From positions 858-64,857 of the forward strand of contig JACQKQ010000033.1 of the NCBI GenBank assembly GCA_016204465.1: a stretch of 64,000 bases of DNA. The letters run 5' to 3'. Within the stretch, counting starts at the first letter, position 1, and the number at the start of each line of letters is the position of its first letter. This document shows positions 10,888-53,056 of the stretch, piece after piece. Below the pieces are notes generated by a model. The model was not told the origin of the DNA and did not search any database. It saw only the letters and a program-made list of their open reading frames with translations. The DNA comes from Candidatus Levyibacteriota bacterium. GTDB taxonomy: Bacteria; Patescibacteriota; Microgenomatia; Levybacterales; UBA12049. A program made the translations under genes and the position numbers.

Positions 10888-11295
10888 ATGATGCATGTTT
10901 CACGAAGTGAAGATTACGCTCTCATTTTAGTTCAGTCGCTAACAAAGGCATATAAAAAACGGCTAATTCCTCTGTCTGAAATTGCTAAAAAACATAATCT
11001 TTCGTTACTTTTTTTGCGCAATATTGCAGCAAGTCTCAAGAGAGTGGGTTTTATTACTGCAATAGAGGGAAGAAAGGGGGGCTATAAGCTTCTTAAAGAT
11101 CCAAAATCTATTCAGTTGGGAAATATTATCGAAGCGTCATCAAAAAAAACATTTCTTTCTTGTTGTCAAAAAACAAAAGACGGCAAGTGCCAGGCAAAAA
11201 CATGTCCACATGGATTTTCGCTGCGACGATTGCAAAATCAATTTTTAGAACAAATTTATCATATAAAACTTTCAGAGATTACTAAAAATGCTTAA
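10888..11295 (+). CDS. Rrf2-family transcriptional regulator (IscR/SufR-like), probably Fe-S cluster binding
   Basis: N-terminal wHTH (SEDYALILVQSL...LSEIAKKHNLSLLFLRNIAASLKRVGFI) and a C-terminal Cys cluster (CCQKTKDGKCQAKTCPHG); directly precedes the suf operon. Confidence 0.85.
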   Translation: MMHVSRSEDYALILVQSLTKAYKKRLIPLSEIAKKHNLSLLFLRNIAASLKRVGFITAIEGRKGGYKLLKDPKSIQLGNIIEASSKKTFLSCCQKTKDGKCQAKTCPHGFSLRRLQNQFLEQIYHIKLSEITKNA

Positions 11296-12022
11296 TATTC
11301 AAAATCTTCATGTAACAACGGAAGGCAAAGACATTCTAAAAGGTATTAATCTTTTAATAAAACCTGGCGAAGTGCATGCGATCATGGGGCCAAATGGCGC
11401 TGGAAAAACAACGCTTGCGATGAGCTTGATGGGAAACCCGAATTACCAGTTCAAAATGCAAAATGCAAAATTCAAAATTAACGATAAGAACATGTTCAAA
11501 TTAACTCCAGAGGAACGGGCGAGGGCTGGGCTTTTTGTTTCGTTTCAGCATCCGGTTAGCGTTATCGGTGTTTCAGTTTTGGCGTTTTTGCGTACTGCAT
11601 ACAAAGCGCTTCATCCGCAAAAACCTATTAAGCTTTCCGAGTTCAAGGAGACCGTAAAAAAGTCATTATTGCAAGTAGGTTTACCAGAAGATTTTATGCA
11701 GCGATCAATTAACGAAGGATTTTCTGGTGGAGAGAAAAAGCGCATGGAGATTGTTCAACTACTTGTTCTTAAACCAAGATATGCCATCCTTGATGAAATT
11801 GATTCAGGGCTTGATATTGATAGTCTTCGTATTATTGCCAAAGCTGTGGCAAAGATTGTTAAAAAACAAAAAATGGGGATTTTGCTTATCACCCATTACC
11901 AACGAATTCTCCATTACTTAAAGCCTGATTTCGTTCATGTTCTCAAAGAGGGAAAAATTGCAGCTTCTGACGGCATGGCACTTGTTACCAAAATTGAAAG
12001 GAAGGGTTATGCAACAATTTGA
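11288..12022 (+). CDS. sufC: Fe-S cluster assembly ATPase SufC
   Basis: Walker [14 protein letters not shown] signature FSGGEKKR, Walker B ILDEIDSG. Confidence 0.9.
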
Positions 12023-13400
12023 TCTGTCAGGTTATGAATTTGGTTTTCACGACAATATAAAGCCTGTATTTGCAACGAAAAAAGGACTAACAAAAAAAAC
12101 TGTTGAAGAAATTTCGAATATAAAAAACGAGCCGCAATGGATGCAGGATTTTCGCCTTCGTGCCTTAGATATATTCTTTGCCAAAAAAATGCCGATGTGG
12201 GGCAGTGATTTGTCAAGAATTAATTTTGACAATATTTACTACTACGTAAAACCAACTGACAAGCAAGGGAGGACATGGGATGAAGTGCCAATAGAAATTA
12301 AAAATACTTTTGAAAAAATTGGCATTCCCCAAGCAGAGCGAAAGTTTTTGGCAGGCGTTGGCGCGCAGTATGACTCCGAAGTTATTTACCACAGTATCTC
12401 AAAAATGCTTTCAAAAAAAGGCGTTATTTTTGTTGATACGGATACCGCTATTCAAAAATATCCAGAGCTTGTTAAACAGTATTTCGGGAAGGTAATTCCT
12501 GCTGCAGACAATAAATTTGCTGCGCTGAACTCTGCGGTATGGAGTGGCGGATCATTTATTTATGTTCCAAAAGGCGTTCGTGTTGATCTTCCACTGCAAG
12601 CGTACTTTCGAATCAATGCCCGCAACATGGGACAGTTTGAACGAACACTGATTATTGCTGATGAGGGATCATACGTGTCATACATAGAAGGTTGCACGGC
12701 CCCGATTTTTACCACCAATTCGCTCCATGCTGCGGTTGTTGAAATTATAGTGAAAAAAGGCGCACGAGTGCGTTACACGACTGTGCAGAATTGGAGTAAG
12801 AATGTCTACAACCTTGTGACAAAACGAATGTTTATTGAGGAGGAAGGATTTGGCGAATGGATTGACGGTAATCTTGGTTCACAATTAACCATGAAATATC
12901 CATCGGTGTACTTAAAGGGCCGAAAGGCGCGAGGAGAAGTTCTCTCTTTAGCATTTGCAGGAAAAGGGCAGCATCAGGATGCGGGCGGAAAAGCAATCCA
13001 TTTAGCACCAGAAACAAGCTCCGTCATAACATCTAAATCAGTCAGTAAAGACGGCGGTCGTACCTCATATCGAGGCATGCTTAAGGTTGTTAAAGGAGCA
13101 GAAAACAGTAAGTCAACGGTTCGTTGCGATGCGCTTATCTTAGACGATAAGAGCCGTGCCGATACGTACCCGACAATGGATATTGACGAAGAACGAGTAA
13201 CGATTGGACACGAAGCATCAGTATCAAAAATCGGCGAAGAGCAACTTTTCTATTTCCAATCCCGCGGTATTTCCCAAGTACTGGCCGAAGTAATGATTGT
13301 GAATGGTTTTGTTGAGCCGATTGTTCGCGAGTTGCCCATGGAATATGCAGTAGAACTAAATCGACTAATTCAGCTTGAGATGACTGGAGCGGTCGGATAG
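12009..13400 (+). CDS. sufB: Fe-S cluster assembly protein SufB
   Basis: In-frame ATG at 12009 ([13 protein letters not shown]) and conserved SufB C-terminal beta-helix region ([10 protein letters not shown]...MIVNGF). Confidence 0.85.
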
Positions 13401-13438
13401 GAAATTAAAAAATCAAAAATTAAAAGGCAAAATGACAT

Positions 13439-14008
13439 ATGCAAAATATAGAAATTGTTATAAAAAAGAATGAAAATAAAGTTTTCCCCTTTGTTTGGAT
13501 CAATAGTGACGAAGAAGAGGTAGTAATTGATGCACGTTTGGTTGGGGAGGGGGCAAGACTTTCAATTATCGGAATTTTTGTCGGGGCTGACCAAAAACAT
13601 ATCACGTTTAATACAAACATCGTCCATGAAGCAAAAAATACATATAGCAGAACAACGCTTCGTGGAGTCTTTAAGGATCATAGTGTTTTTAGCAATGATG
13701 GATTAGTCCGAATCAACAAAGGCGCGAAAGGAGCGGATGGGTTTTTTGATTCAAAAGTACTGCTTTTCGATGATGCAAAAGGGCGAAGTGTTCCATCGCT
13801 TGAGATTGATGAAAACGAATTAAAAGCAGGTCATGCGTCAACCGTTGGCAGGCCGGATGCAGAGCAAATATTTTATTTACGAAGCAGAGGACTGTCCGAA
13901 GAAGAAGCAGAGAAGCTCATTGTTTCGGGGTTTTTTACACCTATTTTGAAACAATTCTCAAAAGATAAGCAACTACAATTATCAAAACGAATAGAAGAAA
14001 TGTTATGA
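13439..14008 (+). CDS. sufD: short SufD-like Fe-S assembly protein
   Basis: C-terminal SufB/D family region (IFYLRSRGLSEEEAEKLIVSGFF); a 189-aa short form. Confidence 0.6.
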   Translation: MQNIEIVIKKNENKVFPFVWINSDEEEVVIDARLVGEGARLSIIGIFVGADQKHITFNTNIVHEAKNTYSRTTLRGVFKDHSVFSNDGLVRINKGAKGADGFFDSKVLLFDDAKGRSVPSLEIDENELKAGHASTVGRPDAEQIFYLRSRGLSEEEAEKLIVSGFFTPILKQFSKDKQLQLSKRIEEML

Positions 14009-15225
14009 AAAACCATAAAAAAGATTTTCCTATTTTCCAAAACAATCCAGACCTCATTTATTTAGATTCTGCGGCAACGAGCCAAAAGCCAAGGGTCGTT
14101 TTGGATGCAATAAATGAGTATTATACTTCGTATAACGCAAACATAAAGCGGGGGATATACCCAATTGCGGAGAAAGCGACCGCAAAAGTGGAGGAAGTAA
14201 GAAAAAAAGTTGCGCAATTTATTAACGCGAAGTCTAAAGATGAGATTATTTTTGTCCGTAATGCGACAGAAGCAATTAATCTTGTCGCATACTCTCTTGC
14301 GAGCACATCCGCCAGCTGGCGGATTTCAAGAGGGGATACAATTGCGACAACTATTATGGAGCACCACTCAAATTTTGTACCTTGGCAACAACTCGCCATT
14401 CAAAAAAATGCTGATTTTCTAGTACTGGATATCGATCAGAATTTCAAATTTCAAATATCAAATTTCAAATATCAAATAAAAAACGCCAAAATTTTGGCAA
14501 TAACGCACGTCTCCAATGTTCTTGGCACAATAAATCCGCTCAAAAAAATGATCAATGATTTACGAACAGTGAACGCTGATCTCATCATTCTTGTTGATGC
14601 GGCGCAGTCGGTGCCGCATATGAGCGTTGATGTGCAGGATTTGGATTGCGATTTTTTGGTGTTTTCAGGGCACAAAATGATGGCGGCAACAGGGATCGGT
14701 GTTCTTTACGGCAAGAAAACGCTGCTTTCAAAAATGCAGCCGTTTTTGTACGGCGGTGAAATGATTCGCGAAGTAACTATTCAAAATACGTCATTTGCAA
14801 AGCTTCCACACAAATTTGAGGCTGGAACGCCGGATATTGCTGGCATTGTAAGCTTAGGCGCTGCAATTGAGTACTTAAATAGTACGGGTATAGAAAATGT
14901 TCTAAAACACGAGATTATGCTCATAAAATATGCATTAGAGCAATTAAAAAATATGCAAGAACTCACTATTTACGGATCTACAAATGCTCGTAAGCGAGGG
15001 GGGGTAATATCGTTCAATCTCAAAGGAATTCACCCTCACGACGTTGCGCAAATTTTAGGAGAAATGGAAATTTGTATTCGCGCCGGCCACCACTGCGCAA
15101 TGCCTTTGCACAACCGCTTAGGAATTCCGGCATCCGCGCGCATTAGTTTCTATATTTACAATGAAGAGCAAGATATAGATAAATTTGTTAATGGATTACA
15201 AAAGGTTCAAAAAATGTTTAGATAA
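14005..15225 (+). CDS. sufS: cysteine desulfurase SufS
   Basis: PLP-lysine motif FSGHKMMAATGIGVLYGK, AITHVSNVLG, active-site RAGHHCA. Confidence 0.9.
   Translation: MKNHKKDFPIFQNNPDLIYLDSAATSQKPRVVLDAINEYYTSYNANIKRGIYPIAEKATAKVEEVRKKVAQFINAKSKDEIIFVRNATEAINLVAYSLASTSASWRISRGDTIATTIMEHHSNFVPWQQLAIQKNADFLVLDIDQNFKFQISNFKYQIKNAKILAITHVSNVLGTINPLKKMINDLRTVNADLIILVDAAQSVPHMSVDVQDLDCDFLVFSGHKMMAATGIGVLYGKKTLLSKMQPFLYGGEMIREVTIQNTSFAKLPHKFEAGTPDIAGIVSLGAAIEYLNSTGIENVLKHEIMLIKYALEQLKNMQELTIYGSTNARKRGGVISFNLKGIHPHDVAQILGEMEICIRAGHHCAMPLHNRLGIPASARISFYIYNEEQDIDKFVNGLQKVQKMFR
14443..14477 (+). repeat. 5 x 7-nt tandem repeat (TTCAAAT/ATCAAAT) inside sufS
   Basis: Perfect heptamer periodicity; encodes NFKFQISNFKYQIKN. 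Confidence 0.8.
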
Positions 15226-15231
15226 AAGATT

Positions 15232-15612
15232 ATGGATTTTTCGAAGATATACAGAGAAGAAATTTTGGAGCACTATAAAGAGCCGCTGAATTTTGGAACA
15301 CTCGAAGATTTTGATATGACATCGCGACAGTTTAATCCTTTTTGCGGCGATGAGATTGTGATCTTCGTTACATTTCAGAATGATAAAATTAGCGATATTC
15401 GATTTCAGGGAAAAGGGTGCGCAATAAGTGTTGCCGCGGCGTCAATGCTTACCGAACACGCAAAAGGAAGATCGAAAGAGGAGTTGACAAAATTTACAGA
15501 AGACGATATGCTAAGCCTAATTGGGATAGATGTTTCAGAGACCCGTAAGAAGTGTGTGTTTTTAGCGTTGGGAGTGTTAAAAGATTGTTTAGTGCAAAAT
15601 GCAAAATTTTAA
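15232..15612 (+). CDS. sufU: SufU/IscU-like Fe-S scaffold (NifU N-terminal family)
   Basis: Conserved cysteines at CGDEI, GKGCAISVAAASM and KKCVFLALG. Confidence 0.75.
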   Translation: MDFSKIYREEILEHYKEPLNFGTLEDFDMTSRQFNPFCGDEIVIFVTFQNDKISDIRFQGKGCAISVAAASMLTEHAKGRSKEELTKFTEDDMLSLIGIDVSETRKKCVFLALGVLKDCLVQNAKF

Positions 15613-15660
15613 TTTTTATTTGTATTTTTGATTTTTAATATTTAATTTTTGATTTTTTTT
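15593..15660 (+). repeat. period-7 tract (TGCAAAA x2, then TTTTAAT-like units) spanning the sufU stop and the sufU-ferredoxin spacer
   Basis: Read from the sequence. Confidence 0.55.
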
Positions 15661-15663
15661 ACT

Positions 15664-15936
15664 ATGGCATTAAAAGTAAAAGTTGATCGAAATTTGTGCA
15701 TTGGAGCAGCCTCTTGTGTTGCAGTTGCACCAAATACGTTTGAGCTTGACAGCGAAGGCAAGGCAGTGATTAAGAAAAAGGACGGTACGACTACCTCTGA
15801 TTTTGTCAATTATAGTGAGATTAACGACAACGAAACTAACATTGAACACGCTGCAAAATCGTGCCCTGTGAATGCAATTATCATTGTTGAGGTGGATGAG
15901 CAAGGTAATGAAGTCCGCCAAGTCTGGCCTTCCTAA
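15664..15936 (+). CDS. 4Fe-4S ferredoxin
   Basis: CIGAASCVAVAPNTF and C-terminal CPVNAI motifs; start taken at the ATG at 15664 (MALKVKVD). Confidence 0.7.
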   Translation: MALKVKVDRNLCIGAASCVAVAPNTFELDSEGKAVIKKKDGTTTSDFVNYSEINDNETNIEHAAKSCPVNAIIIVEVDEQGNEVRQVWPS

Positions 15937-16031: not shown

Positions 16032-17771
16032 GTGAGCGATATTCAGTGGTTGATTGGTGGCGAGGCAGGGTACGGCATCATGACAACAGGGGTTATGATG
16101 TCGAAAATCTTTACCCGTTTGGGATTTTCGGTGTTTGATTATGTCGAGTATCCGTCGCTTATTCGCGGTGGACATAATGCATACTATGTTCGAGGTTCTG
16201 ACGAACAAATCTACTCACAAAAACAGCCGGTTGATATTTTGGTCGCACTCAACAGAGAAACAATTGATAAACACAAGCACGAACTAACTCCCGCTGCCAA
16301 AGTCGTGTTCGATCCAAACTTCACAAAGGTAGAGGCGAATGAATTCCCTGCTGGCATTGTTCAAATCCCTGTTCCTTTTTTAGAAATCACAAAGCAACTA
16401 AATGTTGATAGGCTTATGATCAACACCGTTGCTGTTGGTGCGTCCTTAGCGCTTTTTTACAATGATTACGCAGTTCTAGAGAAAATTATGCGGGATGTAT
16501 TTGGCAGAAAAGGGGAAAAAGTAGTTTCGGAAAATGTGAATACATCGAAAGCTGGGTTTGATTATGTACTCAAAAACTTTGCTTTAGCATGCACGTCGGT
16601 TGCAAAAAAACAGCAAGAAAACTTACTTTTGGGTGGTTCTGAAGCAATTGCCTTAGGCGCAATAAGGGCGGGGCTTAAATTTGCAGCAATTTATCCTATG
16701 ACACCTATTAATGGCGTTTTGACAACGCTTGCAGCGTATGCGCTCAAGTACAACATTATTGTTAAAGAACCGGAAGATGAGATTGCCGGTATAAATATGG
16801 CAATTGGCGCGTCGTTTGCAGGCGTTAGAAGTATGGCAGCAACAAGCGGCGGCGGATTTTCATTAATGGTAGAAGGTTTAGGGCTTGCTGCCCAAACAGA
16901 AGTGCCGTTAGTTGTTATAGAAGGGATGCGGCCGGGGCCGGCAACCGGTATGCCAACGTGGACAGAGCAAGGTGATCTTCGCTTTGTCTTGCACGCAGCG
17001 CAGGGAGATTTTCCAAGAATTGTTGTTGCTCCGGGAGATATTTTTGAAGAGTTTACTTTTACAATGGACGCGTTTAATCTGGCTGAAAAATACCAATTGC
17101 CGGTTATTGTTCTAACAGATAAATATCTTAACGAAGGTCATGCAACAATTAAAAGCGAAGAGCTAAAAGCGAAAAGCGAAAAATATGTAATTCAGCGAGG
17201 GAAAATGCTCACAGATCAAGAACTCGCTAGTCAAACAGATTATAAACGATATGCATTTGTCGAAGATGGCATATCGCCTCGAAGTTTGCCAGGCCAGCAA
17301 GGTGGAATCGGGCTTACTGGTTCCGATGAGCACGATGAGCACGGGCTTTACAACGAAGAATCAGAAGTACGTATTAAAATGATGGATAAGCGGTTTAAAA
17401 AATTAGAAATGGCAACTGCAGAAATTTCTCAACCAGTAATGCACGGTTCAAAAGAAGCGCCATTGACTATTTTTGCTTTTGGCTCAACAAAATTACCACT
17501 TCTTGAAGCAATGCAGTGGCTTGCAAAAGAAAATATTTTGGTAAACTTTGTTCAAGTAGTATTCATTTCGCCATTCCCAACAGAGTACGTAGCCAAAGCG
17601 ATACAATCTGCAAAAAAGACAATGGTAATTGAAGGCAATAAAACAGGCCAATTTGAAGGGTTAATTAGAGAGTATACAGGTTTATCAGTCAATCACCATT
17701 TCCGAAAATACGACGGCCGGCCGTTTTACCCAGAAGAAATCGTTGCGAAAGTGAAGGAGGTTTTGAAGTAA
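16032..17771 (+). CDS. korA: 2-oxoacid:ferredoxin oxidoreductase alpha subunit (KorA/PorA-type)
   Basis: GTG start; 579-aa subunit whose stop overlaps the beta-subunit start (TAATG). Confidence 0.8.
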   Translation: MSDIQWLIGGEAGYGIMTTGVMMSKIFTRLGFSVFDYVEYPSLIRGGHNAYYVRGSDEQIYSQKQPVDILVALNRETIDKHKHELTPAAKVVFDPNFTKVEANEFPAGIVQIPVPFLEITKQLNVDRLMINTVAVGASLALFYNDYAVLEKIMRDVFGRKGEKVVSENVNTSKAGFDYVLKNFALACTSVAKKQQENLLLGGSEAIALGAIRAGLKFAAIYPMTPINGVLTTLAAYALKYNIIVKEPEDEIAGINMAIGASFAGVRSMAATSGGGFSLMVEGLGLAAQTEVPLVVIEGMRPGPATGMPTWTEQGDLRFVLHAAQGDFPRIVVAPGDIFEEFTFTMDAFNLAEKYQLPVIVLTDKYLNEGHATIKSEELKAKSEKYVIQRGKMLTDQELASQTDYKRYAFVEDGISPRSLPGQQGGIGLTGSDEHDEHGLYNEESEVRIKMMDKRFKKLEMATAEISQPVMHGSKEAPLTIFAFGSTKLPLLEAMQWLAKENILVNFVQVVFISPFPTEYVAKAIQSAKKTMVIEGNKTGQFEGLIREYTGLSVNHHFRKYDGRPFYPEEIVAKVKEVLK

Positions 17772-19762
17772 TGCCAACGACATTAAAAGATTTAGAGATT
17801 ACCTACGACAAGCCAAACTGGTGTCCGGGGTGTGTTGTGCCAAACACGTTTATTCAAACAAACCCGTCTGCGACGCTTGTTGCAAATATCAAAAAAAACG
17901 ATAAAGTAATTGCAAGCGATGGTAAGACCCATGTCGTAACAGAAACGATGAGCCACATACACAACGGCGTTGTGTACCAATTAGTCTCAAAGTACTTTGG
18001 AGAAACGACGCTAACCCAAGAACATCCAGTACTTGCTGTTCGGCGAAAATATCGTAAGTTGCAAAATATTGAGTTTAAGTCCGAATGGATTGAGGCAGGA
18101 GAACTTCAAGCTGGAGATTACCTTCTTTATCCAATCCTAAAAGAGACAAGAAACATTCAGACAATAAACCTTTCGTACGTTAGAAAAACAAAAGATACCA
18201 AGGGCAAGATACTCCCAAAACAAATTGTTCTTTCCAATAGCTTTTTGCGCCTCTGCGGTTATTATATTGCCGAAGGATATGTCCACAGACGATCTATCAA
18301 TCTTACCTTCCATATAAAAGAGCAAGAGTATGCAGACGATGTTATACAAATTATGGAAGAAATCTTTAATCTTTCTAGTAAAAAAGTTTTAAGAAAAGGC
18401 AAACAAACCGTCGACCTATCTTTTAATTCTTCCTATCTTTCCGAGTTTTTTGAAGAATGGTTTGGTAAAGGAGCTATTGCGAAAAAAATTCCTGATTTCT
18501 TAATGTTTTTGCCAAAAGAAAAGCAAGGAGAGCTTATAAAAGGATTATGGCGAGGGGATGGCTGGGTAAGCCAGAAAACACATAGGGCAAGTTTTAAAAC
18601 AATTTCTAAAGTTTTATGCGAGCAAGTAAAAGTCCTGCTTCTTCGCTTTGGTATTTTACCAATAATAAGTGTCTACAAAGCCTATGGCATGCATAAAATG
18701 TCGTATGCAATACAACTAAGAGATCCATACGACTTTTCTCTTCTTGCCAAAATTTTAAGCATGGAAGACAACATAGTTGTCGCTTCAAGAACAAGAAATC
18801 TCATAACTTCTGATTTTGCGTTTCTACCAATTAAAAAAATTGAAAAGAAAAAATATAAAGGACCGGTCTATAACATGGAAGTTGAAACAGAAAATGCCTA
18901 TGTTTCCGAGAATGCAATTTTGCACAATTGCGGCGATTTCGGCGTGTGGGTATCAATAAAAAACGCCATTGTGCAACTTGGCCTTAACCCATGGGAGGTG
19001 GTACTTGTGTCTGGTATTGGCTGTTCAGGGAAATTGCCCTATTGGGTAAAAACGTACGGATTCAATGGTTTGCATGGTAGGCCAATGCCGCCGGCCGAGG
19101 CGATCAAGCTTGCAAACCACGGCTTAACAGTAATTGTTATTGGCGGTGACGGCGATCAATACAGTGAAGGCGCAAATCACCTCATCCATGCGATGCGCCG
19201 CAATATTAATATCACACTTATTGTTCACAATAATCAAATCTACGGTCTCACAACCGGCCAGTATTCGCCAACTACCGACATTGGAGAGAAAAACAAAACA
19301 ACACCCGTGCCAACGGTTGAGGCGCCGGTGAATCCAATGTCTTTGGCTCTTGCAGCAGGAGCTACGTTTGTCGCGCGTGGGTTTGCTGGAGATAACAAGC
19401 AAGAAACAGAGCTTATTGTTGCTGGTATCAAACATAAAGGGTTTTCGATTATTGACACCATGCAGCCGTGCGTTACATTTAACCACAAAAACACCTTTTC
19501 ATGGTTTTATGAGCGCGTCTACAAAGTAGAAGCGCAAGGACATGATCCAAAAAACAAACAAAAAGCGTTTGCGTTGGCCGAACAATGGCCGCTGCGTGCA
19601 CCACTCAAAGAAGGCGAAAAAGAACATATTCCAACGGGCATTCTTTTTCAAGAAGATCGTCCAACATGGGAAGACGGCATTCCGCAAATTAGCCAAACGC
19701 CGCTTGTGAAACAGCCGCTTCAAAACATTGACATTTTACCAATCCTCAAAGACTTAGCATAA
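17771..19762 (+). CDS. korB: 2-oxoacid:ferredoxin oxidoreductase beta subunit (TPP-binding), interrupted by a 366-aa intein with LAGLIDADG homing endonuclease
   Basis: Exteins give the canonical WCPG|CGDFG TPP-subunit motif once residues 21-386 are removed. The insert has intein blocks: N-terminal Cys, block B TLTQEH, LAGLIDADG-like LCGYYIAEGYV and LIKGLWRGDGWVS, a VYNMEVE block and terminal HN followed by Cys+1. Confidence 0.85.
   Translation: MPTTLKDLEITYDKPNWCPGCVVPNTFIQTNPSATLVANIKKNDKVIASDGKTHVVTETMSHIHNGVVYQLVSKYFGETTLTQEHPVLAVRRKYRKLQNIEFKSEWIEAGELQAGDYLLYPILKETRNIQTINLSYVRKTKDTKGKILPKQIVLSNSFLRLCGYYIAEGYVHRRSINLTFHIKEQEYADDVIQIMEEIFNLSSKKVLRKGKQTVDLSFNSSYLSEFFEEWFGKGAIAKKIPDFLMFLPKEKQGELIKGLWRGDGWVSQKTHRASFKTISKVLCEQVKVLLLRFGILPIISVYKAYGMHKMSYAIQLRDPYDFSLLAKILSMEDNIVVASRTRNLITSDFAFLPIKKIEKKKYKGPVYNMEVETENAYVSENAILHNCGDFGVWVSIKNAIVQLGLNPWEVVLVSGIGCSGKLPYWVKTYGFNGLHGRPMPPAEAIKLANHGLTVIVIGGDGDQYSEGANHLIHAMRRNINITLIVHNNQIYGLTTGQYSPTTDIGEKNKTTPVPTVEAPVNPMSLALAAGATFVARGFAGDNKQETELIVAGIKHKGFSIIDTMQPCVTFNHKNTFSWFYERVYKVEAQGHDPKNKQKAFALAEQWPLRAPLKEGEKEHIPTGILFQEDRPTWEDGIPQISQTPLVKQPLQNIDILPILKDLA
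17831..18928 (+). mobile_element. intein with LAGLIDADG homing endonuclease domain, inserted in korB at the CPGC|GDFG motif
   Basis: Starts with Cys (CVVPNTF...), ends ...ENAILHN, followed by extein Cys. Boundaries computed from the ORF frame: 1098 nt = 366 aa. Confidence 0.8.
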
Positions 19763-20286: not shown

Positions 20287-20350
20287 CGCAATAAGGCAAA
20301 GATTACACTATTGACATAACTTGTGTCAAGAGGCTAATATAAAAATCACA

Positions 20351-20821
20351 ATGGTATTCAATTTACAAATTTTAGTTTTTGTTATTGGTTTTGCTTGGCT
20401 TATTATCCTTACCTTTTTTTATCTTCGACTTTATTCTCACTACAATAATTTAACTCGTGGAATGAGCAGTAAAACATTGCGTTCAATTCTTGAAGAGCTT
20501 CTCCAAGAAGTAAAAAGCGCACAAAAAGAAATTACAATGCTTGTTTTGCGATGTGATAAAATAGAACAACAGATTCTTTTGCATATTCAAAAAATTGGCC
20601 TCTTGCGATTTAATCCGTTTAAGGATACAGGGGGTAATCAAAGTTTTATCTTAACGCTTCTTGATGCTAATAATACAGGAGTTGTTATTTCTGGTTTGTA
20701 TTCCCGCTTGGGAACGCGGTGGTATGCAAAAGAAGTTATTGCAGGAAAAGGCGTAGATCATGAGTTATCAGAGGAGGAAAAACGGGCAATAAAAGAAGCA
20801 AAACAGTCCGTAAAGACATAA
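20351..20821 (+). CDS. DUF4446-like membrane-anchored protein
   Basis: N-terminal TM segment followed by IGLLRFNPFKDTGGNQSFILTLLDANNTGVVISGLYSR, the pattern typical of the DUF4446 family; start at the ATG at 20351. Confidence 0.5.
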   Translation: MVFNLQILVFVIGFAWLIILTFFYLRLYSHYNNLTRGMSSKTLRSILEELLQEVKSAQKEITMLVLRCDKIEQQILLHIQKIGLLRFNPFKDTGGNQSFILTLLDANNTGVVISGLYSRLGTRWYAKEVIAGKGVDHELSEEEKRAIKEAKQSVKT

Positions 20822-20827
20822 GAAGGT

Positions 20828-21994
20828 ATGAGTACTAAAACATTAACACTTATTGTTATTTCACTTATGATTTATGTTGTAAGTACAGGTATTTCCTACG
20901 TCGCATTCTCAAAAATTGCTTCGGTTGCTGTTTCTGTTGCGCCGCCAAATGTTGATACTAAATCAGGCGTAACAACATTTGATGACACATTGCCAAAAAC
21001 GCAAGAGTGTCCTCTAAACGGCGCGATGTATTCAAAAAAGCAGCGTGACTGGTGGGAGAAGCATCGACCGCTTGGAGTTATGGTTGAAAACCACCAGGAG
21101 TCCCGGCCGCAATCCGGTTTGTCATTTGCCGATGTAATCTACGAAATCGTTGCAGAGGGCGGCATTACACGATTTCTAGCTGTGTATTATTGTCAAGATG
21201 CAGGCCAAGTGGGGCCTGTTCGTTCTGCACGAACTTATTTTCTTGACTTTATTTCTGAATATGGAGATTTTCCACTTTATGCACATGTTGGCGGTGCAAA
21301 CACCCCAGGACCTGCAAATGCACTTGGGCAGATTGAAGATTACGAATGGGAAGGGTACAACGATCTTAACCAATTCTCAATTGGGTATCCTACATTCTGG
21401 CGAGATTACGATAGACTTGGACGATCTGTAGCAACAGAGCATACAATGTATTCTACAACGTCAAGGTTGTGGCAGTTTGCAGAAAAAAATAGGGAAGTAT
21501 CAGCAAAAGATTCAGAAGGAAATAAGTGGGATGAGGAATTTGTGCGATACGCTTTTAAGGACGATGCGCCGTCTCAAGAGAGAGAAGCATCGCAGAAAGT
21601 GGATGTTACCTTTTGGGATGGATACGATCAATATATGGTAACTTGGGAGTACGACAATGCAACAAATAGCTACAAACGAAAGAATGGCGGTTCCCCGCAA
21701 ACTGACAAAAACACAAATAGACAGTTGACAGCAAAAAATATTGTAGTATTATTCATGCAGGAGAATAATGCAAACGATGGGTATACCAATAATTTGCACT
21801 TACTCTATAAAACAAAAGGAAAAGGGAAGGCGGTTGTCTTTATGGACGGGAAGAAGATAGACGGGACTTGGGGTAAAGACAGTAGAACGGATAGAACAGT
21901 TATTTATGATAGGGTAGGTAAAAAAGTGGAATTTAACAAAGGGACATTGTGGTTTCAAGTCCTGCCCCTCGAAGGAGAGGTAGATGCTAGCTGA
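20828..21994 (+). CDS. DUF3048 (YerB-like) secreted/lipoprotein
   Basis: N-terminal signal/TM segment and the RPQSGLSFADVIYEIVAEGGITRFLAVYY motif typical of DUF3048. Confidence 0.5.
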   Translation: MSTKTLTLIVISLMIYVVSTGISYVAFSKIASVAVSVAPPNVDTKSGVTTFDDTLPKTQECPLNGAMYSKKQRDWWEKHRPLGVMVENHQESRPQSGLSFADVIYEIVAEGGITRFLAVYYCQDAGQVGPVRSARTYFLDFISEYGDFPLYAHVGGANTPGPANALGQIEDYEWEGYNDLNQFSIGYPTFWRDYDRLGRSVATEHTMYSTTSRLWQFAEKNREVSAKDSEGNKWDEEFVRYAFKDDAPSQEREASQKVDVTFWDGYDQYMVTWEYDNATNSYKRKNGGSPQTDKNTNRQLTAKNIVVLFMQENNANDGYTNNLHLLYKTKGKGKAVVFMDGKKIDGTWGKDSRTDRTVIYDRVGKKVEFNKGTLWFQVLPLEGEVDAS

Positions 21995-38141: not shown

Positions 38142-38795
38142 ATGAATAGTAATTTAGTATATGGTTTTCTCGACGAATCTCCTGCCTTAAGTGATGATGT
38201 GCTTTTCTTTTGTGTCGATATTGTTTCCACAAGCGATAAAACCAACAAGCAACTTCAGAATATTATCAAACGAGCAAGAAAAAGAGTTGTCAAAAAGAAA
38301 CTCAAATCTCTCTCCGAAATAAAATTCCATGATTCTGATGAAAGAACAAGGATATACGTTTTAAAAGAAATTGCGAAATATAATGTAAAGATCATTGCCG
38401 TTATAATTGACAAACAGGGAAGGGTGGTAAAAGATACTCCACTTAACTATGGAATTGCGGTCGGTACAACAATTGCTGAAATGCTCTCCGTATATCCGGT
38501 TTTAAATCTTACACTCGACAAAAAATTTACGAAAGGAGAGCAAGAAGTAGAATTTCTGAAATATGCTCAAGAAACAGTTGAAAAACTTGCTCCCAAAAAT
38601 AAAAGCGTTGTTTTCAATCCACCGAAGGACAGCAAGCAAGATAGTTTGTTACAACTAACTGATTTTGTCGCCGGAGCAATACAGGCAAAATATAATAACA
38701 AAGATAATCATTATGTCGAGATTATTCAGGACAAAATTGTAGTTGAAAAGATGATTAAGTGGACGAAGCTCAAAAAAAGAATAGTCAATCCCTGA
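38142..38795 (+). CDS. DUF3800-like protein
   Basis: Start at the ATG at 38142 (MNSNLVYGFLDES) and C-terminal LQLTDFVAGAI motif, both characteristic of DUF3800. Confidence 0.5.
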   Translation: MNSNLVYGFLDESPALSDDVLFFCVDIVSTSDKTNKQLQNIIKRARKRVVKKKLKSLSEIKFHDSDERTRIYVLKEIAKYNVKIIAVIIDKQGRVVKDTPLNYGIAVGTTIAEMLSVYPVLNLTLDKKFTKGEQEVEFLKYAQETVEKLAPKNKSVVFNPPKDSKQDSLLQLTDFVAGAIQAKYNNKDNHYVEIIQDKIVVEKMIKWTKLKKRIVNP

Positions 38796-39026
38796 ACTCC
38801 GATTCTCACCGCCTCTCCGATGTGCATCGGAGTAAGATAGCTAAATTCATAGCTATTTTGCACGGAATAAGACAGTCTTACGGCCATCTAGAGTAGTCAG
38901 GACTTACTTGACTATTCTATTGATAATATTATCACATTTTAGAGGGTTATTCAAGCACCAAAAATGCTTTGAAAATCTTCTTGTTAATGATACTATATCA
39001 GTACTCAAGATGAATTTTTTGAAATT

Positions 39027-52982: not shown

Positions 52983-53056
52983 TGCCGGATCATCTAATGG
53001 TAGGATAGAGGACTCTGAATCCTTTCATCTAGGTTCGAATCCTAGTCCGGCAGCCA
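52983..53056 (+). tRNA. tRNA-Gln (anticodon CUG), CCA encoded
   Basis: Manual cloverleaf: 7-bp acceptor TGCCGGA/TCCGGCA, anticodon stem GAGGA/TCCTT with loop CTCTGAA, T-arm CTAGG-TTCGAAT-CCTAG, discriminator G then CCA. Confidence 0.75.

What the first reader, a model, noticed from the sequence alone, without database searches (positions are those of the whole stretch)
17831..18928. Intein with LAGLIDADG homing endonuclease splitting the TPP-binding CPGC|GDFG motif of the 2-oxoacid:ferredoxin oxidoreductase beta subunit
The beta-subunit ORF is about 366 aa longer than normal. The excess forms one contiguous insert that begins with Cys right after WCPG and ends ...ILHN immediately before CGDFGVW. 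Removing it restores the universally conserved WCPGCGDFG motif. The insert carries the canonical intein splicing blocks (Cys1, TxxH, a VYNMEVE block, HN + Cys+1) and two LAGLIDADG-type motifs. An intein at the cofactor-binding loop of a KOR/POR beta subunit is, to my knowledge, not a classical catalogued insertion site, and it sits in a central metabolic enzyme of a reduced genome.
Basis: partly seen in the sequence, partly recalled or inferred. Interest (0 to 1): 0.6.

Follow-up and report, generated by a model that had tools for sequence, protein, structure and literature searches.

The report
Intein in ferredoxin oxidoreductase beta subunit
A self-splicing protein insert (an intein carrying its own DNA-cutting homing enzyme) interrupts the iron-sulfur-binding CxxC motif of a central metabolic enzyme in a Candidatus Levybacteria genome; it is a textbook intein at a site I found described in no paper, although the same insert is present, unremarked, in dozens of public bacterial and archaeal genomes.

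Summary
ORF 17771-19762 (+) encodes a 663-aa beta subunit of a two-subunit 2-oxoacid:ferredoxin oxidoreductase (OFOR). Nucleotides 17831-18928 encode a 366-aa class-1 intein with a two-motif LAGLIDADG homing endonuclease.

Removing the insert gives a 297-aa protein. It aligns end to end with 296-297-aa intein-less Levybacteria orthologues and, ungapped across the junction, with the Sulfolobus tokodaii OFOR crystal chain. Cys1, T62xxH65, H365-N366, Cys+1 and both endonuclease acidic residues are present. The AlphaFold model (pLDDT 93.5) matches solved VMA, PI-SceI, PI-PkoII and PI-PfuI inteins.

The split motif WCPG|CGDFG is the CxGC ligand motif of the [4Fe-4S] cluster, not the TPP motif, which lies about 70 residues downstream. 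The site is also not rare: at least 110 protein clusters and 52 GTDB species genomes carry this intein at exactly this site, across CPR bacteria, Chloroflexota, DPANN and ammonia-oxidising archaea. It is patchy among close relatives, and identity patterns suggest horizontal spread.

New lead: the precursor reads C(-3)-P-G-C(1), identical to the engineered "CPGC" intein redox trap, so redox-conditional splicing is testable. Verdict: a new member of a known kind, of moderate interest.

The parts
16032..17771 (+). OFOR alpha subunit (579 aa). It is the partner of the intein-bearing beta subunit, and its stop codon overlaps the beta start (TAATG).
   Evidence: Pfam POR (E=9e-30), POR_N (E=8e-51) and PFOR_II. 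The overlap and a GGAGG 10 nt upstream of the beta ATG are visible.
17771..17830 (+). N-extein, 20 aa (MPTTLKDLEITYDKPNWCPG). Cys18 (17822-17824) is the first Cys of the CxGC [4Fe-4S] ligand motif and sits at position -3 relative to the intein.
   Evidence: The motif's function comes from PMC5020499.
17831..18928 (+). Intein, 366 aa, class 1 (Cys1 ... His365-Asn366). It contains a LAGLIDADG homing endonuclease domain.
   Evidence: Pfam Intein_splicing and LAGLIDADG_3. AF2 model with pLDDT 93.5 and pTM 0.92. Top Foldseek hits are the TliVMA, PI-SceI, PhoVMA, PI-PkoII and PI-PfuI inteins, E=1.6e-23 to 1e-14.
17831..18190 (+). N-terminal part of the splicing (HINT) domain, intein residues about 1-120. 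It includes block A (Cys1) and block B.
   Evidence: All-beta secondary structure in the model. Conserved columns C1, P4, G31, G57, T62, H65, P66. The boundary is approximate.
18014..18025 (+). Block B, T62-Q-E-H65 (the TxxH motif).
   Evidence: T62 and H65 are invariant in 46 aligned sequences.
18191..18757 (+). LAGLIDADG homing endonuclease domain, intein residues about 121-309. It consists of two alpha-beta-beta-alpha-beta-beta-alpha repeats.
   Evidence: Secondary structure H136-148/E/E/H162-179/E/E/H201-211 and H229-243/E/E/H260-272/E/E/H299-308. The domain matches I-DmoI and I-Tsp061I. PDB sequence hit to PI-PkoII residues 265-417, E=9e-11. The boundary is approximate.
18245..18280 (+). 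LAGLIDADG motif 1 (block C), L139-RLCGYYIAEG-Y150, with the catalytic-position acidic residue E148.
   Evidence: G143, E148 and G149 are invariant. E is present in 45 of 52 same-site GTDB loci; one has K and six did not match my pattern.
18533..18565 (+). LAGLIDADG motif 2 (block E), L235-IKGLWRGDG-W245, with the acidic residue D243.
   Evidence: W240, G242 and G244 are invariant and D243 is at least 90% conserved. D is present in 51 of 52 same-site GTDB loci.
18758..18928 (+). C-terminal part of the splicing domain, residues about 310-366. It carries block F (G344-PVYNMEVE) and block G (NAILH365-N366).
   Evidence: G344, V346 and N366 are invariant in 46 sequences; N348, E350, V351 and H365 are at least 90% conserved there and invariant in the 11-intein alignment.
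18929..19762 (+). C-extein, 277 aa plus stop. It starts with Cys+1 (18929-18931), which is the second Cys of the CxGC cluster motif (mature Cys21).
   Evidence: Pfam TPP_enzyme_C and PFO_beta_C.
19145..19234 (+). The true TPP-binding motif GDG-X25-NN (mature residues 93-122), well downstream of the intein.
   Evidence: Regex on the spliced sequence. It lies inside the Pfam TPP_enzyme_C match. Recognising the motif as the TPP motif rests on general knowledge of TPP enzymes.

Best explanation
This is a canonical class-1 intein with an embedded LAGLIDADG homing endonuclease. It is inserted in frame in the beta subunit of a two-subunit (Sulfolobus-type) 2-oxoacid:ferredoxin oxidoreductase of a Candidatus Levybacteria bacterium, between Gly20 and Cys21 of the CxGC motif that ligates the enzyme's single [4Fe-4S] cluster.

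Inferred mechanism, by standard intein chemistry:
1. The 663-aa precursor is translated, coupled to the alpha subunit.
2. Cys1 performs an N-S acyl shift at the Gly(-1)-Cys1 bond, assisted by block B T62/H65.
3. Cys+1 attacks the thioester, giving a branched intermediate.
4. Asn366 cyclises, assisted by His365, and releases the 366-aa intein.
5. An S-N shift restores a normal peptide bond. The product is the 297-aa beta subunit with an intact WCPGCGDFG.

The +1 nucleophile is one of the four cluster-ligand cysteines, so the Fe-S cluster can only be assembled after splicing.

At the DNA level, the free intein's endonuclease is expected to cut intein-less alleles at the highly conserved sequence encoding WCPGCGDFG. 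It would then be copied in by repair (homing). This explains the intein's patchy presence among close relatives and its presence at the same site in distant bacteria and archaea.

Shown here: the anatomy, the exact junctions, the conserved catalytic residues, the predicted fold, the existence of empty alleles, and constraint on both domains. Inferred: actual splicing and endonuclease activity.
For: Exact contiguous insertion:
- The spliced product aligns end to end with 296-297-aa intein-less orthologues at 73-87% identity.
- It aligns ungapped to 5b46_B across the junction, E=2.5e-70.
- A syntenic Levybacteria locus (L001: sufC-B-D-S-U, ferredoxin, oforA, oforB, DUF4446, DUF3048, SecDF) holds the empty site. 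The reconstructed site is 47/54 nt identical to it.

Intein hallmarks:
- Pfam Intein_splicing and LAGLIDADG_3.
- C1, T62, H65, E148 and N366 are invariant, and H365 and D243 at least 90% conserved, in 46 sequences.
- All 110 homologues in which both junctions could be located read WC[PAV][GA]|C...HN|CG[DN][FY].

Fold: the AF2 model has pLDDT 93.5. Its best PDB matches are homing-endonuclease inteins, with TM 0.75 to TliVMA.

Selection: dN for the endonuclease domain is 0.18-0.25 and for the splicing domain 0.20-0.26, against 0.13-0.21 for the extein, while dS is at least 1.7, i.e. saturated. Both intein domains are therefore constrained.

Mobility:
- Nine Levybacteria-type intein-bearing alleles are scattered among 82 intein-less ones in an extein NJ tree.
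- Closely related pairs have intein identity below extein identity.
- For pairs with exteins only 30-40% identical, the inteins average 45% identity and exceed the extein in 98% of pairs.

Reality of the gene: the identical protein is recorded on 6 contigs.
Against: - No experiment shows splicing or DNA cleavage for any member of this allele family.
- dS is saturated, so omega values are not quantitative.
- The NJ tree has no support values.
- The 45% plateau in intein identity could partly reflect a constrained core rather than transfer. However, related inteins in other host proteins fall to 25-38% identity.
- Block F has Asn where many inteins have Asp (VYNMEVE). This is the family consensus and is not known to me to be disabling.
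Confidence: 0.9

Rival explanations
1. The intein acts as a conditional, redox- or Fe-S-linked splicing switch rather than a purely selfish element. In the precursor, N-extein Cys18 (-3) and intein Cys1 form a C-P-G-C motif. Under oxidising conditions a Cys(-3)-Cys1 disulfide would block the first splicing step, so the oxygen-sensitive Fe-S enzyme would mature only when the cell is reducing.
For: - The precursor sequence is literally CPG|C.
- The native Pyrococcus abyssi MoaA intein has a Cys-3/Cys1 disulfide that controls its activity (PMC3922620).
- Among related inteins, Cys at -3 occurs in 29 of 178 mapped N-junctions, against at most 7 at any other upstream position. The hosts are OFOR CPG|C, thioredoxin-reductase-like CAT|C and CxxxCxx|C motifs.
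- The allele persists across two domains with intact splicing residues.
Against: - The CPGC arrangement follows automatically from inserting before the second Cys of a CxxC motif, so it needs no adaptive explanation.
- The distribution is patchy among close relatives, and the endonuclease is intact and constrained, as expected for a selfish mobile element.
- Most close Levybacteria relatives manage without the intein.
- The Cys(-3) enrichment is driven by a few host families and is not corrected for relatedness.
- Nothing here measures redox sensitivity.
Confidence: 0.2
2. The intein is splicing-dead or decaying, and the beta-subunit gene is effectively a pseudogene in this genome.
For: - Some family members show decay. 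P0115 has GGG and L044 has K at the LAGLIDADG acidic positions, and three homologues end in GN instead of HN.
- NCBI names the protein only 'hypothetical protein'.
Against: - The window copy has an uninterrupted 663-codon ORF.
- Every splicing residue (C1, T62, H65, H365, N366, C+1) and both endonuclease acidic residues are present.
- dN is far below dS in the intein and the extein when compared with three relatives.
- The alpha subunit, the ferredoxin and the suf operon upstream are intact.
Confidence: 0.04
3. The insert is not an intein. It is either a non-splicing HINT or bacterial intein-like domain, or a domain insertion retained in the mature enzyme.
For: There is a weak sub-threshold Pfam hit to PT-HINT (E=0.006, 17.2 bits against a cut-off of 27.7).
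Against: - The C-terminal His-Asn followed by Cys+1 and the precise restoration of a universally conserved host motif are intein features.
- The insertion separates two ligands of one Fe-S cluster, so keeping it is hard to reconcile with function. This step is inference.
- The best structural matches are true inteins.
Confidence: 0.02
4. The insert is an assembly or binning artefact that joins unrelated sequences.
For: The window comes from a metagenome-assembled genome. Intein GC is 36.3% against 46.3% for the exteins.
Against: - The identical protein is seen on 6 contigs.
- More than 100 independent homologues from many samples share the same in-frame junctions.
- Three related intein-bearing loci share the local gene order (NifU_N gene, ferredoxin, oforA, oforB), and two of them also share the downstream genes.
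Confidence: 0.01

Closest known systems
Archaeal and yeast VMA inteins with LAGLIDADG endonucleases (TliVMA 7qsu/7qss, PhoVMA 7qst, PI-SceI 1vde)
   Same: They share the two-part architecture: a HINT splicing domain split by a double-motif LAGLIDADG endonuclease, with Cys1 and a C-terminal HN followed by Cys. They are the best structural matches to the model (E=1.6e-23 to 7.5e-18, TM up to 0.75).
   Different: Sequence identity is only 14-17%. The host is a V/A-ATPase subunit, not an Fe-S/TPP enzyme, and the insertion is in a P-loop region rather than a metal-ligand motif. PI-SceI has an extra DNA-recognition region and is longer.
PI-PkoII (Thermococcus kodakarensis DNA polymerase intein 2, PDB 2cw7)
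   Same: It is the only solved protein with a significant sequence match (E=9e-11). The match covers the endonuclease domain, including both LAGLIDADG motifs and the K-x-IP block D.
   Different: It is 537 aa against 366 aa. The host is a family B DNA polymerase. The splicing-domain halves do not match significantly at sequence level.
Cys(-3)/Cys1 'redox trap' inteins: the engineered CPGC Ssp/Npu DnaE inteins and the native Pyrococcus abyssi MoaA intein
   Same: The window precursor has the identical local sequence C-P-G-C, with the last Cys being the intein's catalytic Cys1 (PMC10772547 and PMC3922620). As in MoaA, the host is an Fe-S enzyme and the flanking cysteines belong to its metal-binding motif. 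The MoaA Fe-S detail is from my own knowledge.
   Different: No redox dependence has been measured here. The DnaE trap is engineered into a mini or split intein, whereas this is a natural full-length endonuclease-bearing intein in a different host.
Sister inteins found here in NifU_N/IscU-type scaffolds, thioredoxin-reductase-like proteins and CxxxCxxC proteins
   Same: They are the closest non-OFOR relatives by sequence (25-41% identity, E=1e-65 to 1e-35). They have the same length class and the same Cys1...HN|Cys+1. They also sit immediately before a conserved metal- or redox-active Cys: GNPV|CGD, CAT|CD, CVFCGF|C.
   Different: They occupy different host genes and target sites. The OFOR inteins are at least about 40% identical to one another and form a distinct allele family.
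Mycobacterial SufB intein (from my own knowledge; not examined here)
   Same: It is an intein in a protein of iron-sulfur metabolism and has been discussed as stress-responsive.
   Different: It has a different host (the Fe-S assembly scaffold SufB) and a different insertion site. SufB in this window (11937-13400) is 487 aa and has no intein.

Membership tests
Intein (class 1, canonical protein-splicing element) | An in-frame insertion in a conserved host protein whose removal restores a contiguous host sequence. | tested here: met
   The spliced 297-aa product aligns over 99-100% of its length with intein-less orthologues. It aligns ungapped across the junction with 5b46_B. An empty-site locus, L001, has the same synteny.
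Intein (class 1, canonical protein-splicing element) | An N-terminal nucleophile (Cys or Ser at position 1). | tested here: met
   Cys1 is at 17831-17833. It is invariant in 46 aligned sequences and present in all 110 homologues in which both junctions could be located.
Intein (class 1, canonical protein-splicing element) | The block B TxxH motif. | tested here: met
   T62-Q-E-H65. Both T62 and H65 are invariant.
Intein (class 1, canonical protein-splicing element) | A C-terminal Asn (usually His-Asn) followed by a Cys, Ser or Thr at +1. | tested here: met
   H365-N366 | Cys+1. 110 of 113 family members with mapped junctions end in HN and three end in GN.
Intein (class 1, canonical protein-splicing element) | A HINT fold for the splicing domain. 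| tested here: met
   This was tested on a predicted structure only. The AF2 model has pLDDT 93.5, and its top Foldseek hits are solved inteins aligned over both splicing halves and the endonuclease.
Intein (class 1, canonical protein-splicing element) | Autocatalytic excision with ligation of the exteins. | not testable with these tools
   This needs expression of the precursor with SDS-PAGE and mass spectrometry, or proteomics for the ligated junction peptide.
LAGLIDADG homing endonuclease (double-motif, monomeric) | Two LAGLIDADG motifs, each ending in a conserved acidic residue. | tested here: met
   L139-Y150 with E148 and L235-W245 with D243. Pfam LAGLIDADG_3 scores E=8.7e-17 in two stretches. 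Conservation is shown.
LAGLIDADG homing endonuclease (double-motif, monomeric) | Two alpha-beta-beta-alpha-beta-beta-alpha repeats forming a DNA-binding saddle. | tested here: met
   The secondary-structure order in the model shows this. The domain matches I-DmoI and I-Tsp061I at E about 1e-7. This is a predicted structure only.
LAGLIDADG homing endonuclease (double-motif, monomeric) | Site-specific cleavage of the intein-less allele, and homing. | not testable with these tools
   The evidence is indirect only: empty alleles exist in close relatives, the distribution is patchy and the domain is constrained.
Two-subunit 2-oxoacid:ferredoxin oxidoreductase, beta subunit (host protein) | A TPP-binding domain with a GDG-X(24-27)-NN motif. 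| tested here: met
   Pfam TPP_enzyme_C scores E=3.9e-26. GDG-X25-NN is at mature residues 93-122.
Two-subunit 2-oxoacid:ferredoxin oxidoreductase, beta subunit (host protein) | An N-terminal CxGC motif plus two further Cys that ligate one [4Fe-4S] cluster. | tested here: met
   After virtual splicing, the protein has exactly four Cys, at positions 18, 21, 52 and 201. Cys18 and Cys21 align to StOFOR Cys12 and Cys15, which the structure paper calls the cluster-ligating CXGC motif (PMC5020499). Assigning Cys52 and Cys201 as ligands is inferred from that paper's reference to four ligand Cys.
Two-subunit 2-oxoacid:ferredoxin oxidoreductase, beta subunit (host protein) | An adjacent alpha subunit with fused gamma and alpha domains. 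| tested here: met
   ORF 16032-17771 has POR, POR_N and PFOR_II domains and overlaps the beta start.
Redox-trap (Cys-3/Cys1 disulfide-controlled) inteins | A Cys at N-extein position -3, forming CxxC with the catalytic Cys1. | tested here: met
   C18-P19-G20 | C1. This is the same CPGC as the engineered trap (PMC10772547).
Redox-trap (Cys-3/Cys1 disulfide-controlled) inteins | A reversible disulfide that blocks splicing or N-cleavage under oxidising conditions. | not testable with these tools
   This needs in vivo or in vitro splicing assays with and without reductant, plus a C18S control.

The most novel reading that the evidence does not exclude
The most novel reading not excluded is that this widespread OFOR-beta intein is a natural 'CPGC' redox trap. 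In the precursor, the first Fe-S ligand Cys (-3) and the catalytic Cys1 would form a reversible disulfide, or bind metal, and so hold splicing in check. The oxygen-labile [4Fe-4S]/TPP enzyme would then mature only under reducing, Fe-S-competent conditions. Related inteins sit at the equivalent position of CxxC motifs in thioredoxin-reductase-like and CxxxCxxC proteins and before a ligand Cys in IscU/SufU-type proteins. That raises the possibility of a clade of inteins that recurrently couples maturation of redox and Fe-S proteins to cellular redox state, in CPR bacteria, DPANN archaea and ammonia-oxidising archaea.
Probability: 0.2. Interest if true: 0.65.

Novelty: new member of a known kind. 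Interest (0 to 1): 0.4.

Why it matters
Most characterised inteins sit in replication, recombination and repair proteins. This one sits in a central carbon-metabolism enzyme, exactly at a ligand cysteine of its only iron-sulfur cluster.

- **Maturation order.** The enzyme cannot receive its cluster until the intein has left, and the splicing nucleophile doubles as a cluster ligand.
- **Annotation.** Public records name this allele only 'hypothetical protein', 'thiamine pyrophosphate-dependent enzyme' or an oxidoreductase beta subunit. It occurs in at least 52 species-level genomes, including ecologically important ammonia-oxidising archaea. Recognising it corrects subunit lengths and clarifies a metabolic marker gene in CPR and DPANN genomes.
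- **A testable redox hypothesis.** The precursor carries the very CPGC sequence that protein engineers introduced to make inteins redox-switchable. This is a natural test case for whether conditional splicing operates on a redox enzyme.
- **Cross-domain transfer.** Near-identical junctions across bacteria and archaea give a clean data set for studying intein homing between domains.

Tried and rejected
- **Literature.** I ran five full-text searches: intein with ferredoxin oxidoreductase; with oxoacid/oxoglutarate/KorB/PorB/TPP; with PFOR/OFOR/OGOR; with Thaumarchaeota; and with Patescibacteria names. None turned up a paper describing an intein in an OFOR, POR or KOR beta subunit. The candidate papers I opened (Thiomargarita, Nanoarchaeota, arCOG update) mention the two topics separately.
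- **Unavailable sources.** Supplements of the Novikova et al. intein survey (PMC4760082) are not held. The Callahan 2011 paper (PMC3087850) is not held either, so the redox-trap facts are cited second-hand from PMC3922620 and PMC10772547.
- **Apparent intein-less hits.** I first took P0037 and P0038 (375-377 aa) for intein-less or mini-intein alleles. Their sequences show they are 5'-truncated fragments that still carry the C-terminal part of the intein.
- **dN/dS.** Synonymous sites are saturated (dS at least 1.7, or undefined), so I use only the qualitative result that dN is far below dS.
- **Other inteins in the window.** A family HMM searched against all six frames found only this one.
- **Frequency of occupancy.** The extein search listed only intein-less proteins and the full-length search only intein-bearing ones. 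These lists therefore cannot be used to estimate how often the site is occupied.
- **Not done.** I did not model the precursor or the spliced extein, because the tool returns no coordinates and the sequence alignment to 5b46_B is already decisive. I also left the third large protein search unused. It would have looked for intein-less alleles among ammonia-oxidising archaea.
Full report
**1. What is in the sequence**

ORF 17771-19762 (+) encodes 663 aa. It starts one base inside the stop codon of the upstream ORF 16032-17771 (TAATG), with a GGAGG 10 nt upstream. The upstream ORF is an OFOR alpha subunit, with Pfam POR, POR_N and PFOR_II domains. The 663-aa protein has TPP_enzyme_C and PFO_beta_C at its C-terminal end, plus Intein_splicing and two LAGLIDADG_3 stretches in between.

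Translating 17831-18928 gives 366 codons with no stop, from CVVPNTF... to ...ENAILHN. The DNA junctions are TGG TGT CCG GGG | TGT GTT and CAC AAT | TGC GGC GAT TTC GGC.

**2. Is it one contiguous insertion at that junction?**

Yes.
- Deleting residues 21-386 gives a 297-aa protein reading ...KPNWCPGCGDFGVW....
- This virtual product aligns over 99-100% of its length, at 73-87% identity, with 296-297-aa beta subunits from Levybacteria and Microgenomates that lack the insert. Of these, 92 of 120 read WCPGCGDFG exactly.
- It also aligns with the crystal-structure chain 5b46_B of Sulfolobus tokodaii OFOR at E=2.5e-70, with no gap at the junction.
- A Levybacteria genome (GCA_016182425.1, locus L001) has the same gene order and an uninterrupted beta gene. 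The order is sufC, sufB, short sufD, sufS, sufU, ferredoxin, oforA, oforB, DUF4446, DUF3048, an unnamed 191-aa ORF, then SecD/SecF. The 54-nt site reconstructed from the window is 47/54 identical to that empty site.

**3. Is it an intein?**

All sequence hallmarks are present and conserved.
- Cys1.
- Block B, T62-x-x-H65.
- LAGLIDADG motif 1, L139-Y150, with E148.
- Block D, K218-K-I-P.
- LAGLIDADG motif 2, L235-W245, with D243.
- Block H, LLLRFGI.
- Block F, G344-PVYNMEVE.
- Block G, H365-N366, followed by Cys+1.

In 46 aligned sequences, C1, T62, H65, G143, E148, G149, W240, G242, G244 and N366 are invariant, and H365 and D243 are at least 90% conserved.

An AlphaFold2 model built with that alignment has mean pLDDT 93.5 and pTM 0.92. 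It shows beta-rich N- and C-terminal parts around two alpha-beta-beta-alpha-beta-beta-alpha repeats. Foldseek against the PDB returns only endonuclease-bearing inteins at the top: TliVMA at E=1.6e-23 and TM 0.75, then PI-SceI, PhoVMA, PI-PkoII and PI-PfuI. Free-standing LAGLIDADG enzymes such as I-DmoI follow, matching the middle domain. By sequence, the only solved relative is PI-PkoII, at E=9e-11 over the endonuclease domain.

**4. Correction: which motif is split**

[quoted passage not shown] These residues align to mature Cys18 and Cys21 here.

The mature protein has exactly four cysteines, at positions 18, 21, 52 and 201. This matches that paper's reference to four ligand Cys. The assignment of Cys52 and Cys201 is my inference.

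The TPP motif GDG-X25-NN lies at mature residues 93-122, nt 19145-19234. So the intein splits the iron-sulfur ligand motif, and its +1 splicing nucleophile is itself a cluster ligand. It follows, by inference, that the cluster can only be inserted after splicing.

**5. How common is it?**

A search with the whole protein returned 250 hits. All of the best 120 carry the intein domains or fragments of them.
- In the 110 in which both junctions could be located, they read WC[PAV][GA]|C ... HN|CG[DN][FY], with intein lengths of 342-388 aa and a median of 366.
- Three more end in GN.
- Source names include Levybacteria, Woesebacteria, Microgenomates, Chloroflexota, Aenigmarchaeota, Woesearchaeota, Micrarchaeota, Nitrososphaera and Ca. 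Nitrosotenuis uzonensis.

A pattern scan of one genome per GTDB species found 61 loci. Of the 53 I checked, 52 have the intein at this same site, with no internal stop. Both LAGLIDADG acidic residues were recognisable in 44 of these; one locus has K at the first position and the rest did not match my search pattern. These loci include the complete genome of Ca. Nitrosotenuis chungbukensis MY2, together with Nitrosotalea, Collierbacteria, Saccharimonadales and Limnocylindria.

The window's own protein is MBI4079310.1, named 'hypothetical protein'. None of the source names mentions an intein. No paper in the searchable library describes an intein in this enzyme. The site is therefore undescribed in the literature I could search, but it is not rare.

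**6. Is it mobile?**

- Among close Levybacteria-type sequences, nine intein-bearing alleles are scattered among 82 intein-less ones in a neighbour-joining tree of the exteins. The tree has no support values.
- Against three relatives whose DNA I fetched, dN is 0.18-0.25 for the endonuclease domain, 0.20-0.26 for the splicing domain and 0.13-0.21 for the exteins. dS is at least 1.7, i.e. saturated. Both intein domains are under constraint, but they evolve somewhat faster than the host.
- Across all 113 inteins with mapped junctions, closely related pairs show lower identity for the intein than the extein (for example 82% against 93%). For pairs whose exteins are only 30-40% identical, the inteins average 45%, and they exceed the extein in 98% of pairs.
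- Related inteins in other host proteins fall to 25-38% identity. The 45% plateau is therefore better explained by spread of one intein lineage between distant hosts than by co-descent.
- Whole-gene transfer between CPR and DPANN may also contribute. I did not separate the two.
- The intein is more AT-rich than its host gene: 36.3% GC against 46.3%, with the window at 40.1%.

**7. Relatives in other proteins, and the CxxC pattern**

An exhaustive search with the intein alone found 266 cluster representatives at E<=1e-30. Besides OFOR beta subunits, the nearest relatives sit in several other host proteins:
- NifU_N/IscU-type scaffolds, with junction GNPV|CGD, immediately before a conserved Cys;
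- thioredoxin-reductase-like flavoproteins, with junction CAT|CD, inside the redox-active CxxC (motif identity from my own knowledge);
- proteins with CVFCGF|C-type motifs;
- a phage terminase;
- a UDP-GlcNAc 2-epimerase.

Among 178 mapped N-junctions, Cys occupies position -3 in 29, against at most 7 at any other upstream position. This count is not corrected for relatedness and is driven by a few host families.

**8. The redox-trap lead**

Because the intein sits before the second Cys of CPGC, the precursor reads C(-3)-P-G-C(1). Engineered redox-responsive inteins are made precisely by placing CPG before the catalytic Cys to create a CPGC disulfide trap (PMC10772547). The native Pyrococcus abyssi MoaA intein uses a Cys-3/Cys1 disulfide to control its activity (PMC3922620).

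Redox-conditional splicing of this oxygen-sensitive Fe-S enzyme is therefore a concrete hypothesis. I rate it at about 0.2 as a physiologically meaningful switch, for two reasons. The arrangement follows automatically from the insertion site. The patchy distribution and the intact endonuclease fit a selfish element.

**9. Verdict**

The motif label is corrected to the Fe-S ligand motif, and the claim of rarity is corrected to 'widespread but undescribed'.

It is a new member (insertion allele) of a well-known kind of element. Interest is moderate at 0.4. It rises if the CPGC trap proves functional.

Noticed in passing
window 11288-15936 (+): A complete suf iron-sulfur assembly cluster lies directly upstream of the OFOR genes on the same strand: sufC 11288-12022, sufB 11937-13400, a short 189-aa SufD-like ORF 13439-14008, sufS 14005-15225 and sufU/NifU_N 15232-15612. 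A 95-aa single-cluster ferredoxin follows at 15649-15936. The same order is found in the intein-less relative L001.
   Followed up: partly
window 15232-15612 (+), SufU/NifU_N: This window's SufU reads ...QFNPF|CGDEI.... That is the unoccupied counterpart of the site (GNPV|CGD) where the closest non-OFOR relatives of this intein are inserted in NifU_N proteins of other organisms (P0247, P0251, P0254 and others).
   Followed up: partly
proteins P0276, P0277, P0281, P0282, P0287; locus L065 1501-2682: Related inteins are inserted inside the CxxC of thioredoxin-reductase-like flavoproteins (C-A-T|C-D). This gives the same Cys(-3)/Cys1 arrangement. Others sit in CVFCGF|C-type motifs (P0246, P0250, P0285).
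   Followed up: partly
loci L011 and L033 (GTDB genome contigs): Two MAG contigs titled 'uncultured Gammaproteobacteria bacterium' carry this intein. L011 is 73% identical to the window's intein and has Levybacteria-type flanks (PNWCPG|C...HN|CGDFGV). They look like mis-binned or mislabelled CPR contigs.
   Followed up: no
proteins P0047, P0082, P0090, P0115; locus L044: There are variants within the allele family. Three inteins end in Gly-Asn instead of His-Asn (...TASGN|CGDFG). P0115 has GGG, and L044 has Lys, at a LAGLIDADG acidic position. This suggests endonuclease decay in some lineages.
   Followed up: no
window 38778-38918 (-): There is an Rfam match to the DUF3800-III RNA motif (51.6 bits against a gathering score of 43.8, E=2.7e-09).
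   Followed up: no
window 52983-53053 (+): This is the only tRNA gene that the Rfam gathering-threshold scan detected in the 64-kb window.
   Followed up: no
window 17831-18928 compared with 17771-17830 plus 18929-19762: The intein is markedly more AT-rich (36.3% GC) than the exteins that host it (46.3%). The window average is 40.1%.
   Followed up: partly
window 20321-21994 (+): DUF4446 and DUF3048 genes follow the OFOR operon. They are conserved in that position in three related Levybacteria-type loci (L001, L008, L010).
   Followed up: no
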